Shown here in pieces: positions 9,544 through 62,507 of a DNA stretch of 64,000 nucleotides; the first letter of the stretch is position 1; every line of letters starts with the position of its first letter. The position numbers and the translations under genes were made by a program. The notes below the pieces were generated by a model. The model had not been told where the DNA came from, did no database searches, and saw only the letters and a program-made list of their open reading frames with translations. Origin of the DNA: Escherichia coli (lineage in GTDB: Bacteria > Pseudomonadota > Gammaproteobacteria > Enterobacterales > Enterobacteriaceae); the NCBI RefSeq assembly GCF_009931435.1, contig NZ_CP043414.1; one strand, written 5' to 3'.

Positions 9544-9641
9544 GCCGGATGCGGCGTGAACGCCTTATCCGGCCTACAAGATCGTGCAAATTCAATATAT
9601 TGCATGAGCCATGTAGGCCTGATAAGCGTAGCGCATCAGGC
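9544..9641. repeat. REP doublet (BIME): two inverted REP copies
   Basis: GCCGGATGCGGCGTGAACGCCTTATCCGGCCTAC (9544-9577) and inverted GTAGGCCTGATAAGCGTAGCGCATCAGGC (9613-9641). Confidence 0.85.
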
Positions 9642-15170: not shown

Positions 15171-16126
15171 TGAAGCAACTTTGGTTTGCCATGTCATTAG
15201 TGACAGGTAGCCTGTTATTCTCTGCTAACGCCTCGGCCACTCCCGCGTCCGGGGCGTTATTACAGCAGATGAACCTGGCCAGTCAGTCACTGAATTACGA
15301 GCTGTCATTCATCAGCATCAATAAACAGGGTGTTGAGTCTCTGCGTTATCGACATGCACGCCTCGATAACCGTCCTCTTGCACAATTGTTGCAAATGGAT
15401 GGCCCGCGCCGGGAAGTGGTACAGCGCGGCAATGAAATCAGCTACTTTGAACCGGGCCTTGAACCGTTCACGCTTAATGGCGATTACATTGTTGATTCTC
15501 TGCCATCGCTCATCTATACCGATTTCAAACGCCTTTCTCCTTACTACGACTTTATCTCCGTGGGACGCACGCGTATTGCTGATCGTCTTTGCGAAGTCAT
15601 TCGCGTGGTGGCCCGTGATGGCACACGCTACAGCTACATCGTGTGGATGGACACCGAATCGAAATTACCGATGCGGGTTGATCTCCTTGATCGCGATGGT
15701 GAAACGCTGGAACAATTTCGCGTGATTGCTTTTAACGTTAATCAGGATATCAGCAGCAGTATGCAGACGCTGGCGAAAGCAAATCTGCCGCCGCTGCTTT
15801 CTGTTCCTGTAGGTGAAAAAGCTAAATTCAGCTGGACGCCAACCTGGTTGCCACAGGGGTTTAGTGAGGTTTCCAGCAGCCGACGTCCGTTACCGACGAT
15901 GGACAACATGCCTATCGAATCACGTCTCTATTCCGACGGATTATTCAGCTTCTCGGTAAACGTTAACCGCGCTACGCCATCGAGCACCGATCAGATGTTG
16001 CGTACCGGACGCAGAACCGTCAGTACAAGCGTACGTGATAACGCCGAAATCACCATTGTCGGCGAACTGCCGCCGCAAACGGCGAAACGCATTGCCGAGA
16101 ATATTAAGTTCGGGGCAGCGCAATGA
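15170..16126 (+). CDS. rseB: Periplasmic regulator of sigmaE, binds RseA
   Basis: 318 aa with signal peptide; start overlaps rseA stop (TAATG). Confidence 0.93.
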   Translation: MKQLWFAMSLVTGSLLFSANASATPASGALLQQMNLASQSLNYELSFISINKQGVESLRYRHARLDNRPLAQLLQMDGPRREVVQRGNEISYFEPGLEPFTLNGDYIVDSLPSLIYTDFKRLSPYYDFISVGRTRIADRLCEVIRVVARDGTRYSYIVWMDTESKLPMRVDLLDRDGETLEQFRVIAFNVNQDISSSMQTLAKANLPPLLSVPVGEKAKFSWTPTWLPQGFSEVSSSRRPLPTMDNMPIESRLYSDGLFSFSVNVNRATPSSTDQMLRTGRRTVSTSVRDNAEITIVGELPPQTAKRIAENIKFGAAQ

Positions 16127-16602
16127 TCAAAGAGTGGGCTACGGTCGTCTCCTGGCAAAACGGGCAGGCGCTGGTCAGTTGTGATGTTAAAGCCTCATGC
16201 AGCAGCTGTGCTTCCCGTGTCGGTTGCGGTAGCCGCGTGCTGAATAAACTTGGCCCACAAACCACGCATACCATTGTCGTACCCTGTGATGAACCGTTAG
16301 TGCCGGGGCAAAAAGTGGAATTAGGAATCACCGAAGGCAGCCTGCTTAGCTCCGCATTACTGGTTTATATGTCGCCGTTGGTGGGATTATTCCTCATCGC
16401 TTCGTTATTTCAGCTACTCTTTGCTTCAGATCTTGCAGCATTATGCGGTGCGATTCTCGGCGGCGTTGGTGGATTCCTGATTGCACGCGGCTACTCGCGA
16501 AAGTTTGCTGCCCGGGCGGAATGGCAACCGATCATCTTAAGCGTGGCATTGCCGCCAGGCCTTGTGCGATTTGAAACATCTTCGGAAGACGCGAGCCAGT
16601 GA
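16123..16602 (+). CDS. rseC: SoxR-reducing system / sigmaE regulatory membrane protein
   Basis: 159 aa; 4-nt overlap with rseB; cysteine cluster CDVKASCSSCASRVGCG then TM helices. Confidence 0.9.
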   Translation: MIKEWATVVSWQNGQALVSCDVKASCSSCASRVGCGSRVLNKLGPQTTHTIVVPCDEPLVPGQKVELGITEGSLLSSALLVYMSPLVGLFLIASLFQLLFASDLAALCGAILGGVGGFLIARGYSRKFAARAEWQPIILSVALPPGLVRFETSSEDASQ

Positions 16603-16799
16603 TTTCACTGGCTTTGTTGCATTTTGCATAACAAATGCGAGGACGTTTCCAGATACCACAATCCATACGGTATGAACATTTCCTCGCCTCAATGTTGTAG
16701 TGTAGAATGCGGCGTTTCTATTAATACAGACGTTAAGCTCAGAACAGCGACTTCTAAAAGCCTGGTTAACCGGGCATTAAGGCACAATAATCATACTTT

Positions 16800-18599
<1,800 letters not shown>

Positions 18600-19589: not shown

Positions 19590-19734
19590 TAGCTTATCTT
19601 CGTTCACGTTGTCGCCGTTATGGCGACAACGTGAATTATTTATGAGATAAATCCCCCGTGGCTAACGACATCCCCCGTCGTTGTGTATAGAATATTCCCC
19701 CGAAGTTTAAGGTTGGCACCTCCAGGTTGCCACG

Positions 19735-19828
19735 GCACACGAAACAGCGTTGGTCCCCATATACCGGTAAACTGAAACTGCAGCGAAGCAGTTAGCAGAG
19801 CCATGTATATCAGGTCTGTTTCGTGTGC
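19735..19828 (+). promoter_or_regulatory. rnc 5' leader long-range stem-loop (candidate RNase III autoregulatory site)
   Basis: Perfect 13-nt inverted repeat GCACACGAAACAG (19735-19747) / CTGTTTCGTGTGC (19816-19828) enclosing smaller stems, ending 34 nt upstream of rnc ATG. Confidence 0.5.
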
Positions 19829-19831
19829 TGA

Positions 19832-21444
<1,613 letters not shown>

Positions 21445-22315: not shown

Positions 22316-23047
22316 ATGGCTGAATTACTGTTAGGCGTCAACATTGACCATATTGCAACGCTGCGTAACGCACGTGGTACTGCTTACCCGGATCCGGTGC
22401 AGGCGGCGTTTATTGCTGAGCAGGCGGGGGCGGATGGCATTACCGTGCATCTACGTGAAGATCGTCGCCACATTACCGACCGCGACGTGCGCATCCTGCG
22501 TCAGACGCTGGATACCCGCATGAATCTGGAGATGGCGGTGACCGAAGAGATGCTGGCGATCGCCGTTGAAATAAAGCCGCATTTTTGCTGCCTGGTACCT
22601 GAAAAGCGCCAGGAAGTCACAACCGAAGGTGGCCTGGACGTCGCAGGGCAGCGTGACAAAATGCGCGATGCCTGTAAACGTCTGGCGGATGCCGGGATTC
22701 AGGTTTCTCTGTTTATCGACGCCGATGAAGAGCAGATCAAAGCCGCGGCAGAGGTTGGCGCACCGTTTATTGAGATCCACACCGGTTGCTATGCCGATGC
22801 CAAAACTGACGCCGAACAGGCGCAAGAGCTGGCGCGCATTACGAAAGCCGCGACCTTTGCGGCAAGCCTCGGTCTGAAAGTTAACGCCGGACACGGTCTG
22901 ACCTATCACAACGTGAAAGCCATTGCCGCCATTCCTGAGATGCACGAACTGAATATCGGTCATGCCATTATTGGTCGTGCAGTGATGACCGGACTGAAAG
23001 ATGCGGTGGCAGAAATGAAGCGTTTGATGCTGGAAGCGCGTGGCTAA
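22316..23047 (+). CDS. pdxJ: Pyridoxine 5'-phosphate synthase
   Basis: Start at ATG 22316 ([21 protein letters not shown], 243 aa); TIM-barrel PdxJ signature. Confidence 0.93.
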
Positions 23048-23427
23048 TGGCAATATTAGGTTTAGGCACGGATATCGTGGAGATCGCTCGCATAGAAGCG
23101 GTGATCGCCCGATCCGGTGAGCGCCTGGCACGTCGCGTATTAAGCGATAACGAATGGGAAATCTGGAAAACGCACCACCAGCCGGTGCGTTTTCTGGCGA
23201 AACGCTTTGCCGTAAAAGAAGCCGCAGCAAAAGCGTTTGGCACCGGGATCCGCAATGGTCTGGCGTTTAATCAGTTTGAAGTATTTAACGATGAGCTTGG
23301 TAAGCCACGGCTGCGACTGTGGGGCGAGGCATTAAAACTGGCGGAAAAGCTCGGCGTTGTAAATATGCATGTAACGCTGGCAGATGAGCGCCACTATGCT
23401 TGTGCCACGGTAATTATCGAAAGTTAA
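23047..23427 (+). CDS. acpS: Holo-[acyl-carrier-protein] synthase
   Basis: 126 aa; [18 protein letters not shown]-terminus; start overlaps pdxJ stop. Confidence 0.95.
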
Positions 23428-23452
23428 AATAATATCGTTCTCTTTAAAAAGT

Positions 23453-23490
23453 AAAACCCCCGAACTGGTAAGGAACGGGGGTTTTACTTT
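23453..23490 (+). terminator. Intrinsic terminator after acpS (palindromic, possibly bidirectional)
   Basis: AAAACCCCCGAACTGGTAAGGAACGGGGGTTTTACTTT: 5-bp G/C stem flanked by A-run and T-run. Confidence 0.65.
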
Positions 23491-23846
23491 ACAACTTTAA
23501 TTTTGTGCAGCACACGATTCCAACAAAAATGATTATGGATCAATTTAGTTATCCTGTACAAGCAACTTGCAATCTTTAGCATAAAAACTCGAGCCTTTAC
23601 GAAGAAATCGATATTGATGAAAAGATTAACGTGACCGCTTTTTGATAAGTACATTAGAATCGGCGTCGTTATTGGATATTTTGCTGTGTTCTACGCCATG
23701 CCACTGAATTCCCCCATTGAAACGAGTGGTGTCGTCAAAGCTCTGGTGTGGAGTGCGGCACTCGATTCCAATAACTCGCACGTTCAGTTTTGGGGAGATG
23801 TAAGGGCTAATCTGAACGGCTGCATTCCTTGTTTAAGGAAAAACGA

Positions 23847-23927
23847 ATGACTGATTGCCGATACCTGATTAAACGGGTCATTAAAGTCGTCATTGCTGTT
23901 TTACAGCTGATCCTTCTGTTCTTGTAA
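23847..23927 (+). CDS. shoB: Type I toxin-antitoxin small hydrophobic toxic peptide (26 aa)
   Basis: ATG 23847 to TAA 23925-23927 encodes MTDCRYLIKRVIKVVIAVLQLILLFL; SD-like AAGGAAAAA upstream; in the acpS-yfhL spacer where shoB/ohsC is known; below the ORF-track size cutoff. Confidence 0.85.
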   Translation: MTDCRYLIKRVIKVVIAVLQLILLFL

Positions 23928-23944
23928 CACCAGGAAACGTACTT

Positions 23945-23985
23945 AAGGCGCGTCAGGTTAACCAGCCAGGCGCGCCTTTAATAAT
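23945..23985 (+). terminator. Candidate terminator hairpin downstream of shoB
   Basis: AAGGCGCG ... CGCGCCTT inverted repeat followed by TTTAATAATT; U-tract weak. Confidence 0.4.
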
Positions 23986-24120
23986 TAGACGTAAGTGTCG
24001 GCGTATATATTATCGGAATTCATTTAATGAATATATTCATTAATGACATCATGGAAATGAATATGTAACTTTCGCTTTTATACGAGCAAATAAGCAATAT
24101 CCTGCTCATAGAGCAAAATA

Positions 24121-24417
<297 letters not shown>

Positions 24418-24436: not shown

Positions 24437-25285
24437 TCAAACCAGTTTTTTCACCAGCGCTTCACTATGACGAATACGTTCTGGTGCCAGTTCCAGATCC
24501 TGCTGAATCAGCGCAATGAACAGTAAATCCGTTAACATTCCCTGAGCGTGACAAGCAGAGATTGCAGCACTGTTTGTCGCTTGTTCTTCGGCAATGGTAT
24601 ACAGGCAGTGAGAAGCGCGTTGTTGCAGGGCATTGGGAGTAAAGCCGGTAATTGCCATCACTTTTCCGCCCACTCGCAGCATCTCATCTGCCGCCAGGTT
24701 TAACTCGCGTCGTACACCAGTGTAGGAAATGGCTAATAACAGATCGTCAGGGGACGACGCCTGGACTGTGGCGAGTAGCGCATGCATATCGCGCACTGCG
24801 GCGGCATTGAAGCCAATCTTCATCAGCTTCCAGGCAAAGTTTTGCGCCACCAGACCCGAAGCGCCAATACCGGTCAGAATTATCCGCCGCGCAGAGCGCA
24901 ACATTGCCACGCCTTCATGCAGTTTCTCTTCACTATTAACGTTTAGCGTTGCGTACATGGCGGCAGTATTTTCTTTAATCAGTTTTTCGCCGACCAGCCG
25001 TAACGGATCATCACCACGGATTTGGTTATGAATGGGCACAGAAGGGGATTCCGGCTGGCTTGCCAGCGCTTCACTCAACGCCAACTTCAATGCCGGAAAA
25101 CCTTTATAGCCGAGTTTTTGCGCGAACTTCACGACGCTGGACTGACTGACTCCGGCTTCGTTGGCCAGTTGCTGAGAGCTTAAATGGCGCGCCGTATCAG
25201 GTTGTAGTAGCAAATAGTCCGCCAGTTTTTTATCACTCTGGGCAAGCCCCTGGTAACGCTGACGGATACGAAGTAAGCCGTTCAT
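24437..25285 (-). CDS. yfhH: RpiR/MurR-family transcriptional regulator (HTH + SIS domain)
   Basis: Start at ATG 25285 (MNGLLRIRQRYQGLAQSDKKLADYLL, 282 aa); SIS domain in C-terminal half. Confidence 0.85.
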   Translation of the reverse strand: MNGLLRIRQRYQGLAQSDKKLADYLLLQPDTARHLSSQQLANEAGVSQSSVVKFAQKLGYKGFPALKLALSEALASQPESPSVPIHNQIRGDDPLRLVGEKLIKENTAAMYATLNVNSEEKLHEGVAMLRSARRIILTGIGASGLVAQNFAWKLMKIGFNAAAVRDMHALLATVQASSPDDLLLAISYTGVRRELNLAADEMLRVGGKVMAITGFTPNALQQRASHCLYTIAEEQATNSAAISACHAQGMLTDLLFIALIQQDLELAPERIRHSEALVKKLV

Positions 25286-25493
25286 ATCTTTCCTCGCGAT
25301 GAAATTATGGCGACAACAGGCAATATGAAACACACGCGAGTGAATTTTATATTCCATTGCTGCTAATTGCCATGAATTAAAAATTCCAGATAGCCATGAT
25401 GCAGTCGATTGTTGCCGGAAAAGTGATGATCTATCTGTTAGGCTATGTAGTAGCGAAGATTAATCAGGATGTTTCAGTCCAGAGGAGTATGGT

Positions 25494-32722: not shown

Positions 32723-32906
32723 AGTGGCTCATTCACCGACTTATGTCAGCCCCTTCGGGACGTGCTACATAAAATTCGAATGACGCACAACAAGGTGCCT
32801 GCCGTCCAACTTCTGATATCAGCTTAGCTATATCAACCCTCGGGCGAAACGTCGAGTTAGGCACCGCCTTATTCCATAACAAAGCCGGGTCATTCCCGGC
32901 TTTGTT
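32723..32906 (+). ncRNA. glmY: Small regulatory RNA GlmY (controls glmS via GlmZ/RapZ)
   Basis: Starts AGTGGCTCATTCACCGACTTATGTCAGCCCCTTCGGGACG 12 nt after the sigma54 -12 element; ends with terminator AAAGCCGGGTCATTCCCGGCTTTGTTGT; ~184 nt; upstream of glrK on the same strand. Confidence 0.8.
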
Positions 32907-62271: not shown

Positions 62272-62400
62272 ACCGTCCTGTTTCGTGTTGCATCTGCGTT
62301 GACTGCACATACTCACTCCGGTCACTTACTTATGTAAGCTCCCGGAGATTCGTAAGTTTGTCAACTTGCTGAAACCCGAAACAGTTAGGTTAAAGATAAC
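62272..62400. repeat. ERIC-like imperfect palindrome in the iscR-iscS spacer
   Basis: Core CACTCCGGTCACTTACTTATGTAAGCTCCCGGAGATTC aligns with the ERIC central region and with the reverse complement of the element at 21447-21575; flanking arms partly complementary. Confidence 0.6.
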
Positions 62401-62507
62401 AAGATATTAGAATCAGGCCGGGGCGTATCGCGCTCCGTAAACACGGTCGTACATCCAGCCGGTAGCCTGGTTCCTTGCATTGAGTGATGTACGGAGTTTA
62501 TAGAGCA

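What the first reader, a model, noticed from the sequence alone, without database searches (positions are those of the whole stretch)
23428..24120. Type I toxin-antitoxin locus shoB/ohsC in the acpS-yfhL spacer; toxin ORF invisible to the ORF track
The 693-bp spacer contains a 26-codon ORF (23847-23927) encoding MTDCRYLIKRVIKVVIAVLQLILLFL, a single hydrophobic helix preceded by an SD-like AAGGAAAAA, matching the ShoB toxin. From established knowledge the antitoxin sRNA OhsC is divergently transcribed just upstream of the shoB transcription start and pairs with the long shoB 5' UTR. I could not fix its ends from sequence; it is expected on the minus strand roughly within 23540-23700.
Basis: partly seen in the sequence, partly recalled or inferred. 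Interest (0 to 1): 0.5.

Follow-up and report, generated by a model that had tools for sequence, protein, structure and literature searches.

The report
Known shoB/ohsC toxin-antitoxin locus

Summary
A 26-codon ORF (23847-23927, +) encodes MTDCRYLIKRVIKVVIAVLQLILLFL. It matches K-12 ShoB at 24 of 26 residues and has an AAGGAA Shine-Dalgarno. It lies in the 693-bp acpS-yfhL spacer, as in K-12. A 100%-identical RefSeq E. coli genome annotates it as shoB.

OhsC is at 23446-23524 (minus strand; Rfam RF02495, 101.7 bits against a gathering score of 50), next to acpS. The stretch 23540-23700 instead holds the two divergent promoters and the start of the shoB mRNA.

OhsC nt 1-20 pair with shoB 5'-UTR positions 23753-23772. 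Nineteen of 20 positions pair, with a central U·U mismatch, at -33.5 kcal/mol. Shuffled controls give -18.0 ± 2.4.

The pairing block differs from K-12 at both sites in a compensating way. This "B" allele (also in O157:H7) is in 1694 (shoB site) and 1692 (ohsC site) of 5426 complete E. coli genomes. The K-12 "A" allele is in 3718. Predicted cross-allele duplexes fall to near background. This supports a pairing that a 2024 survey left unvalidated.

Verdict: an already known system, correctly named, with one coordinate error. Low interest.

The parts
23446..23524 (-). ohsC antitoxin sRNA gene (79 nt). The 5' end at 23524 carries the pairing region; the 3' terminator hairpin is at 23448-23490.
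   Evidence: Rfam RF02495 covers 23448-23524 (-), 101.7 bits against a gathering score of 50, full model 1-77. The K-12 ohsC annotation (b4608) maps to 23446-23524 through alignment A1.
23448..23490 (.). Near-palindromic 15-bp-stem hairpin: the OhsC terminator. Read on the + strand it lies just after acpS and is a likely acpS terminator.
   Evidence: Structure line of the Rfam hit and a weak + strand hit at 23423-23490 (36.9 bits). MFE fold of OhsC. The palindromic ohsC 3' end is also noted in PMC11264685.
23505..23524 (-). OhsC nt 1-20, the target-recognition region (GUUGGAAUCGUGUGCUGCAC), allele B.
   Evidence: RNAduplex gives -33.5 kcal/mol with shoB 23753-23772. 98.8% of cells pair and 5 pairs are compensatory across 13 haplotypes.
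23532..23561 (-). ohsC promoter: -10 CATAAT (23537-23532) and -35 TTGTAC (23561-23556).
   Evidence: Consensus scan hit TGTACA-17-CATAAT. The elements are named in Table 2 of PMC11264685. Consensus match only; function is taken from the literature.
23631..23660 (+). shoB promoter: -35 GTGACC (23631-23636), 18-nt spacer, -10 TAGAAT (23655-23660). K-12 and 99.6% of surveyed strains have TAAAAT.
   Evidence: Consensus scan. Elements from PMC11264685 Table 2. Alignment to K-12.
23668..23982 (+). shoB mRNA, about 315 nt. The start is inferred (about 7-8 nt after the -10 box) and the end is after the terminator hairpin.
   Evidence: Inferred from the promoter position and the hairpin. The length agrees with the ~320-nt full-length transcript reported for K-12 (PMC5397157). 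The transcription start was not mapped here.
23753..23772 (+). OhsC target site in the shoB 5' UTR (GUGCGGCACUCGAUUCCAAU), 75 nt upstream of the start codon.
   Evidence: Apart from OhsC's own gene, this is the best duplex partner of the OhsC 5' end in the whole 64-kb window (-33.5 against the next best -26.7).
23825..23840 (+). Predicted hairpin that sequesters the Shine-Dalgarno: UUCCUU (23825-23830), loop GUUU, AAGGAA (23835-23840).
   Evidence: Perfect 6-bp inverted repeat visible in the sequence. Present in the MFE folds of both the full-length and the 5'-shortened mRNA. No variable site between 23828 and 23847 in the sampled loci.
23847..23927 (+). shoB coding sequence, 26 aa plus stop, encoding a single hydrophobic helix.
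   Evidence: Annotated as shoB (WP_000128779.1) in a 100%-identical genome.
23945..23978 (+). shoB terminator hairpin (GC-rich stem GGCGCG...CGCGCC) followed by UUUAAUAAUU.
   Evidence: MFE fold. The consensus terminator scan did not report it because the T-run is short.

Best explanation

shoB is transcribed rightward from about 23668 as a ~315-nt mRNA. It has a ~179-nt structured 5' UTR and ends at a hairpin at 23945-23978. It encodes the 26-aa membrane-depolarising peptide ShoB.

ohsC is transcribed leftward from 23524 as a 79-nt sRNA. Its first 20 nt pair with positions 23753-23772 of the shoB 5' UTR, far upstream of the ribosome-binding site, and this pairing prevents ShoB synthesis.

Three further steps are inferred by analogy with tisB/istR-1, zorO/orzO and dinQ/agrB and from folds here. 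(1) In the full-length mRNA the Shine-Dalgarno sits in a UUCCUU/AAGGAA hairpin. (2) Fourteen of the 20 target nucleotides are buried in two long-range helices formed with the first ~30 nt of the mRNA. (3) Removing ~41 nt from the 5' end gives the translatable form, whose exposed target or standby region OhsC then blocks, with RNase III cutting the duplex.

Shown here: gene identities, positions, complementarity and its compensatory conservation. Taken from the literature: toxicity, repression, processing and RNase III cleavage. Inferred: the standby-type mechanism and the transcription start.

The window carries pairing allele B, found in about 31% of complete E. coli genomes, in a rare sub-variant seen in 12 genomes. 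That sub-variant also has a TAGAAT -10 box and Val-Val instead of Ile-Ile in ShoB.
For: - Sequence and ORF.
- The spacer matches 5425 of 5426 complete E. coli genomes, always on the chromosome, with shoB annotated. One genome is 100% identical.
- K-12 has the same order acpS - ohsC - shoB - yfhL. Pairwise alignment shows a mean column identity of 92%.
- OhsC: Rfam RF02495, 101.7 bits, and the only copy in the window.
- Both promoters were found by the consensus scan at the positions of the elements listed in PMC11264685.
- Duplex energies: cognate B/B -33.5 and A/A -41.4 kcal/mol; cross-allele -21.5 and -22.3; 1000 shuffles mean -18.0, sd 2.4, minimum -27.8.
- Covariation: 98.8% of cells paired against 25-52% when slid by 1-3 columns, and 5 consecutive pairs changed on both sides.
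- Allele B counts are 1694 (shoB site) and 1692 (ohsC site) of 5426 genomes. Allele A at the shoB site is in 3718.
- Predicted intramolecular helices 23668-23676:23767-23775 and 23682-23698:23744-23760 are 95.6% paired, with only wobble-compatible changes.
- Literature: the 5' end of OhsC has 19 nt of complementarity to the shoB 5' UTR (PMC3919570). The ~320-nt form is inactive and the ~280-nt 5'-processed form is active (PMC5397157 and PMC5066626). An RNase III site lies in the duplex (PMC6212723). Depolarisation on overexpression is reported in PMC8309996.
Against: - Nothing here tests expression, toxicity or repression for this allele.
- Allele B has a central U·U mismatch and a duplex 8 kcal/mol weaker than K-12's, so repression could be less tight.
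- The -10 box is TAGAAT rather than the TAAAAT found in 99.6% of surveyed strains.
- NCBIfam has no model that matches the 26-aa peptide, so protein membership rests on direct identity and annotation.
- The intramolecular helices show no double-sided covariation, and shuffle controls do not distinguish them.
- The A-to-B difference is probably one evolutionary event inherited by many genomes, so the 5 compensatory pairs are not independent.
- The primary paper (Fozo et al. 2008) could not be read here, so the transcription start is inferred.
Confidence: 0.92

Rival explanations
1. One reading: OhsC is encoded on the minus strand within 23540-23700, immediately next to the shoB transcription start.
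For: The arrangement is divergent, and type I antitoxins of this class do start close to the toxin promoter.
Against: The Rfam hit and the K-12 annotation transfer put OhsC at 23446-23524. No RNA family hit falls in 23540-23700 even at E<=1. That stretch holds the -35 of ohsC and the shoB promoter. The sequence complementary to the shoB UTR is at 23505-23524.
Confidence: 0.02
2. The locus is a decaying or silent remnant in this lineage: the rare -10 variant, the mismatched duplex and the altered peptide indicate loss of function.
For: The -10 box TAGAAT is a minority form. There is a U·U mismatch in the duplex. Two Ile-to-Val changes are present.
Against: - TAGAAT keeps the key T1, A2 and T6 positions of the -10 consensus.
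- The ORF, the Shine-Dalgarno, the SD hairpin and both terminators are intact.
- The U·U mismatch is shared by all sampled B-allele loci, including O157:H7, and B is carried by ~31% of genomes.
- Val-Val is also the state in E. whittamii and other outgroup Escherichia.
- The four changes specific to this sub-variant in helix 23682-23698:23744-23760 all keep pairing through wobble.
Confidence: 0.04
3. shoB translation is coupled to an upstream leader ORF, as in hok/mok. A reading frame is open from the inferred transcription start to a TGA that overlaps the shoB ATG (AUGA, 23847-23850), and OhsC would block the leader's translation.
For: The frame is open in all sampled haplotypes and in the sampled Escherichia species (E. 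albertii, E. whittamii and the unnamed Escherichia spp.) except one low-coverage metagenome contig. The stop/start overlap is the classic coupling arrangement.
Against: - Variable sites in that frame fall 13, 7 and 13 on codon positions 1, 2 and 3, so there is no third-position excess.
- Many changes alter the amino acid, including the whole A/B block.
- No Shine-Dalgarno precedes the internal ATG or GTG.
- By my estimate, a 60-codon open frame has about a 5% chance per frame.
- The conservation is equally explained by RNA structure.
Confidence: 0.04

Closest known systems
shoB/ohsC (ryfB/ryfC) of E. coli K-12 MG1655 (b4687 / b4608)
   Same: Same genomic site (acpS-yfhL spacer), same divergent layout and the same spacing. 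The peptide is 26 aa with 24/26 identity. The OhsC scaffold and terminator are essentially identical. The SD, the SD hairpin and most of the 5' UTR are identical.
   Different: Seven of the 8 positions in the core of the pairing block differ in ohsC and in the shoB target, 6 of them identically in both copies (allele B against allele A). The duplex has a central U·U mismatch in place of 19 contiguous pairs. The -10 box is TAGAAT, not TAAAAT. The ohsC -35 is TTGTAC, not TTGTAA. ShoB has V14 V15 instead of I14 I15. The 3' spacer 23985-24120 is largely unrelated in sequence.
shoB/ohsC of E. coli O157:H7 (sampled here from strain 2159) and other allele-B strains
   Same: Same B pairing block at both sites, with the same U·U mismatch (loci L055-L059).
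   Different: The window belongs to a rare sub-variant: 12 genomes are identical over both short queries. It has G instead of A at 23757, A instead of G at 23525, TAGAAT, three changes in 23689-23695 and the Val-Val peptide.
tisB/istR-1, zorO/orzO and dinQ/agrB (divergent type I loci of E. coli)
   Same: Divergently encoded sRNA whose 5' end pairs over ~18-21 nt with a long toxin 5' UTR, far from the RBS. The full-length mRNA is inactive and a 5'-processed form is active. RNase III cleaves the duplex (PMC4147584, PMC5397157, PMC5066626).
   Different: The peptide and RNA sequences are unrelated. A standby-site mechanism has been demonstrated for tisB and zorO but only proposed for shoB.

Membership tests
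ShoB/OhsC type I toxin-antitoxin | 26-aa hydrophobic ShoB peptide homologous to K-12 ShoB | tested here: met
   24/26 identity to K-12 ShoB. The exact protein, WP_000128779.1, is annotated as ShoB in a 100%-identical genome.
ShoB/OhsC type I toxin-antitoxin | OhsC sRNA matching the curated RNA family | tested here: met
   RF02495, 101.7 bits against a gathering score of 50, full-length match at 23448-23524 (-).
ShoB/OhsC type I toxin-antitoxin | Divergent toxin and antitoxin genes in the acpS-yfhL spacer | tested here: met
   Same order and orientation as the K-12 annotation.
ShoB/OhsC type I toxin-antitoxin | The 5' end of OhsC is complementary (~19 nt) to the shoB 5' UTR | tested here: met
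   19 of 20 positions pair (17 Watson-Crick, 2 G·U, 1 U·U) at -33.5 kcal/mol against shuffles of -18.0 ± 2.4. Pairing is kept by compensatory change across alleles.
ShoB/OhsC type I toxin-antitoxin | Promoters and terminators allowing expression of both RNAs | tested here: inconclusive
   Consensus matches lie at the published positions and hairpins are predicted. Consensus matches do not prove activity, and the -10 of shoB is a rare variant.
ShoB/OhsC type I toxin-antitoxin | ShoB is toxic on overproduction and OhsC represses it | not testable with these tools
   Known for K-12 from the literature (PMC8309996 and PMC5397157). Not tested for this allele.
ShoB/OhsC type I toxin-antitoxin | Match to a curated protein HMM | tested here: inconclusive
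   NCBIfam returned no family at E<=1 for the 26-aa peptide. Pfam scanning needs at least 30 aa. This more likely reflects the lack of a usable model for so short a peptide than non-membership.
Standby-site type regulation (tisB/istR-1-like) | sRNA target far upstream of a structurally sequestered RBS, with activation by 5' processing | tested here: inconclusive
   The target lies 75 nt upstream of the ATG. The SD is predicted in a 6-bp hairpin. The target is 14/20 paired in the full-length fold. These are predictions only. Processing is taken from the literature, and no standby site has been demonstrated for shoB.

The most novel reading that the evidence does not exclude
E. coli carries two mutually incompatible specificity alleles of shoB/ohsC, A and B. 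They differ by a block of 6-8 adjacent nucleotides changed at both pairing sites, 248 bp apart, with no intermediates among ~5400 genomes. This points to concerted change of the two short direct repeats, for example gene conversion between them, rather than stepwise compensation. Allele B keeps a fixed central U·U mismatch that may set a different repression threshold. If so, recombination between A and B strains within the 248-bp interval would create a self-poisoning, unrepressed toxin.
Probability: 0.4. Interest if true: 0.35.

Novelty: already known. Interest (0 to 1): 0.15.

Why it matters
The locus adds nothing new: shoB/ohsC has been described since 2005-2008, is annotated in K-12 and is present in nearly every E. 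coli. There are two modest gains. Second, a 2024 survey (PMC11264685) left open whether the highly variable pairing regions of shoB and ohsC still match each other. Here they do. The two major alleles differ by compensating changes at both sites and are co-inherited (1694 against 1692 genomes). This is phylogenetic support for the proposed OhsC-shoB duplex, and it suggests the two alleles would not cross-repress.

Tried and rejected
- The NCBIfam scan of the peptide found no family.
- The primary paper (Fozo 2008, PMC2597788), the 2012 RNA Biology review and the 2008 MMBR review are not held. The mapped shoB transcription start could therefore not be transferred and is inferred from the promoter.
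- A search of the mSystems 2024 supplement for the pairing-block sequences found nothing.
- The CpxR box consensus GTAAA-N5-GTAAA with up to 2 mismatches gave no site between the two promoters. The only hit near the locus is a 2-mismatch site at 23680-23694. Window-wide hits are only modestly above the chance expectation: 69 against 47.8 ± 7.9, matched or exceeded by 1 of 100 shuffles. The published CB1/CB2 sites could not be located here.
- The leader-ORF idea was tested by codon-position counts and rejected as unsupported.
- The minus-strand 56-aa ORF (23484-23654) and the 29-aa ORF (24020-24109) were judged spurious. They overlap the ohsC gene, its promoter and the start of the shoB -35 box, or the yfhL terminator hairpin, and lack a Shine-Dalgarno.
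- The genome-contig scan with a degenerate ShoB N-terminus pattern found only 6 loci, all Escherichia. This agrees with the narrow distribution reported in PMC2887945. Two of them (E. albertii, E. whittamii) were cut short of ohsC.
- The metagenome scan returned only A-type loci. Its exact-match anchor is probably not shared by the common B haplotypes (inference, not checked), so that sample is biased. Allele frequencies were taken from the complete-genome searches instead.

Full report
**1. What is in the sequence**

The interval 23428-24120 is the 693-bp spacer between acpS and yfhL. acpS runs 23047-23427 on the + strand. yfhL is on the minus strand with its stop codon at 24121. AAGGAA lies at 23835-23840, six bases before the ATG.

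A 26-codon ORF alone means little: 41 ORFs of at least 20 aa overlap this 2.5-kb stretch. The comparison is what identifies it.
- The spacer matches 5425 of 5426 complete E. coli genomes, always on the chromosome and with shoB annotated under the match.
- One genome (strain 2020CK-00188) is 100% identical and annotates the same peptide, WP_000128779.1, as "type I toxin-antitoxin system toxin ShoB".
- K-12 MG1655 has the same order: acpS, ohsC (b4608), shoB (b4687), yfhL.
- The two spacers align with a mean column identity of 92%.
- The peptide differs from K-12 ShoB only by Ile14/Ile15 to Val/Val.
- A lepA-rnc stretch of the window is 95-99.5% identical to all E. coli genomes, so the source is E. 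coli.

**2. Where OhsC is**

Rfam family RF02495 (ohsC_RNA) matches 23448-23524 on the minus strand, full length, at 101.7 bits against a gathering score of 50. It is the only copy in the 64-kb window. Transfer of the K-12 annotation through the alignment gives 23446-23524.

The sRNA therefore lies directly beside acpS. Its 15-bp terminator stem (23448-23490) is nearly palindromic and also scores weakly on the + strand. Read on that strand it sits just after the acpS stop and probably terminates acpS too (inference).
- ohsC -10 CATAAT at 23537-23532 and -35 TTGTAC at 23561-23556, on the minus strand.
- shoB -35 GTGACC at 23631-23636 and -10 TAGAAT at 23655-23660.

These come from the consensus scan and from the elements named in PMC11264685 Table 2. 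I infer the shoB transcription start near 23668. Together with the hairpin at 23945-23978, this gives an mRNA of about 315 nt, consistent with the ~320 nt reported for K-12 (PMC5397157).

**3. The pairing**

OhsC nt 1-20 (complement of 23524..23505) pair with shoB 23753-23772, which lies 75 nt upstream of the start codon. Nineteen of the 20 positions pair: 17 Watson-Crick and 2 G·U, with one central U·U mismatch.

The duplex energy is -33.5 kcal/mol. One thousand shuffles of the OhsC 5' end give -18.0 ± 2.4, with a minimum of -27.8. Apart from the trivial antisense of its own gene, this is the best partner anywhere in the window; the next best is -26.7.

**4. A compensating variant**

The alignment to K-12 shows that the core of the pairing block differs at both sites.
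- K-12 has GCATGCACCCTCAA in both copies.
- The window has GCACACGATTCCAA in the ohsC copy and GCACTCGATTCCAA in the shoB copy.

I sampled 62 loci: 45 from metagenomes, 6 from Escherichia species and 11 from complete genomes. They fall into an A class (K-12-like) and a B class (the window, O157:H7 and others).

On 13 distinct haplotypes the intermolecular helix is 98.8% paired, against 25-52% when the partner is slid by 1-3 columns. Five consecutive pairs are changed on both sides, and a sixth shows three pair types.

Short diagnostic queries gave allele counts among the 5426 complete genomes.
- Allele B at the shoB site: 1694 genomes.
- Allele B at the ohsC site: 1692 genomes.
- Allele A at the shoB site: 3718 genomes.

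A plus B at the shoB site therefore accounts for 5412 of the 5425 genomes that hold the locus. The B counts at the two sites agree to within two genomes, as expected for co-inheritance. Only marginal counts were available, so joint haplotypes were not tabulated.

Predicted cross-allele duplexes drop to -21.5 and -22.3 kcal/mol, close to the shuffle background. The cognate A/A duplex is -41.4.

All sampled non-coli Escherichia (E. albertii, E. whittamii and unnamed species) carry A-like targets. B is therefore probably derived within E. coli.

One caveat applies. The A/B difference is most likely a single event inherited by many genomes, so the five compensatory pairs are not independent observations.

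[quoted passage not shown] It stated that sufficient pairing potential could not yet be affirmed (PMC11264685). The present counts answer that point in the affirmative.

**5. The window's sub-variant**

Only 12 genomes are identical to the window over both short queries. This sub-variant has:
- G at 23757 and A at 23525;
- TAGAAT as the shoB -10 box, where TAAAAT is found in 99.6% of surveyed strains;
- changes at 23689, 23691 and 23695;
- the Val-Val peptide, which is also the state in several outgroup Escherichia.

**6. Structure of the shoB leader (prediction)**

In the MFE fold of the full-length RNA, the SD pairs with UUCCUU (23825-23830) in a perfect 6-bp hairpin. The extreme 5' end (23668-23676) pairs with 23767-23775, and 23682-23698 pairs with 23744-23760. 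Fourteen of the 20 target nucleotides are thus buried.

Across haplotypes these helices are 95.6% paired, and all changes are one-sided and wobble-compatible. That includes the four changes specific to this sub-variant. However, there is no double-sided covariation, and the shuffle control does not discriminate. The helices are therefore consistent with the data but not proven.

This fits three published findings. The longest shoB transcript is translationally silent, while a form shortened by 41 nt at the 5' end is active (PMC5066626 and PMC5397157). The locus may work like tisB/istR-1 (PMC4147584). An RNase III site was found in the shoB/OhsC duplex region (PMC6212723).

**7. Alternatives**

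- A decaying locus is unlikely because every element is intact.
- A leader ORF is suggested by a frame open from the inferred start to a TGA overlapping the shoB ATG, in all haplotypes. Its variable sites show no codon-position bias (13, 7 and 13), and no SD precedes its possible starts. I regard it as a by-product of RNA-level conservation.

**8. Verdict**

The compensatory A/B allele structure is a small addition to what is published. Novelty: already known. Interest: low.

Noticed in passing
window 23668-23850 (+): A reading frame stays open from the inferred shoB transcription start to a TGA that overlaps the shoB ATG (AUGA). This holds in every sampled haplotype and Escherichia species except one low-coverage contig. 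Variable sites show no third-position bias (13, 7 and 13), so it is probably not a coding leader.
   Followed up: partly
window 23985-24120: The 3' part of the spacer, between the convergent shoB and yfhL ends, is hypervariable among E. coli: 12-19 variable sites per 20 nt, and many genomes match the query only up to position 570 or 637. In this window it contains overlapping AT-rich palindromes (ATTCATTTAATGAAT, ATGAATATATTCAT) of unknown meaning. A yfhL terminator-like hairpin lies at 24123-24095 (-).
   Followed up: no
window 23655-23660: The shoB -10 box is TAGAAT here, whereas a survey of >2000 strains found TAAAAT in 99.6%. The effect on shoB transcription is unknown.
   Followed up: no
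window 23886-23891 (ShoB codons 14-15): ShoB has Val-Val where most E. coli have Ile-Ile. Val-Val is also found in E. whittamii and in divergent Escherichia loci L005, L020 and L042. This rare B sub-variant therefore combines a derived pairing block with an outgroup-like peptide, which suggests a mosaic history.
   Followed up: partly
L001 2445-3693 (E. coli 2020CK-00188) against window 24372 onward: The genome that is 100% identical over the spacer diverges from the window inside the 5' end of yfhL and carries a tyrosine recombinase/integrase gene there. The window continues with a yfhH-like regulator (24437-25357, -). This is a likely island insertion point in that relative.
   Followed up: no
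L062 955-1163; H75 (strain EC96); L015: Occasional disruptions of the locus occur in other strains. An IS1 lies just downstream of shoB in strain AH02. Strain EC96 matches only the first 85 nt of the spacer. A 1.65x-coverage metagenome contig has a one-base deletion in the target and a frameshifted shoB, probably an assembly error.
   Followed up: no
window 9578-9620, 16087-16918, 19702-19916, 32723-32870, 62397-62506: Other Rfam matches above gathering score in the window: ES036 sRNA, AsrC antisense RNA, the rncO leader, GlmY sRNA and the iscRS element. All are known E. coli RNAs and are consistent with an E. coli chromosome segment.
   Followed up: no
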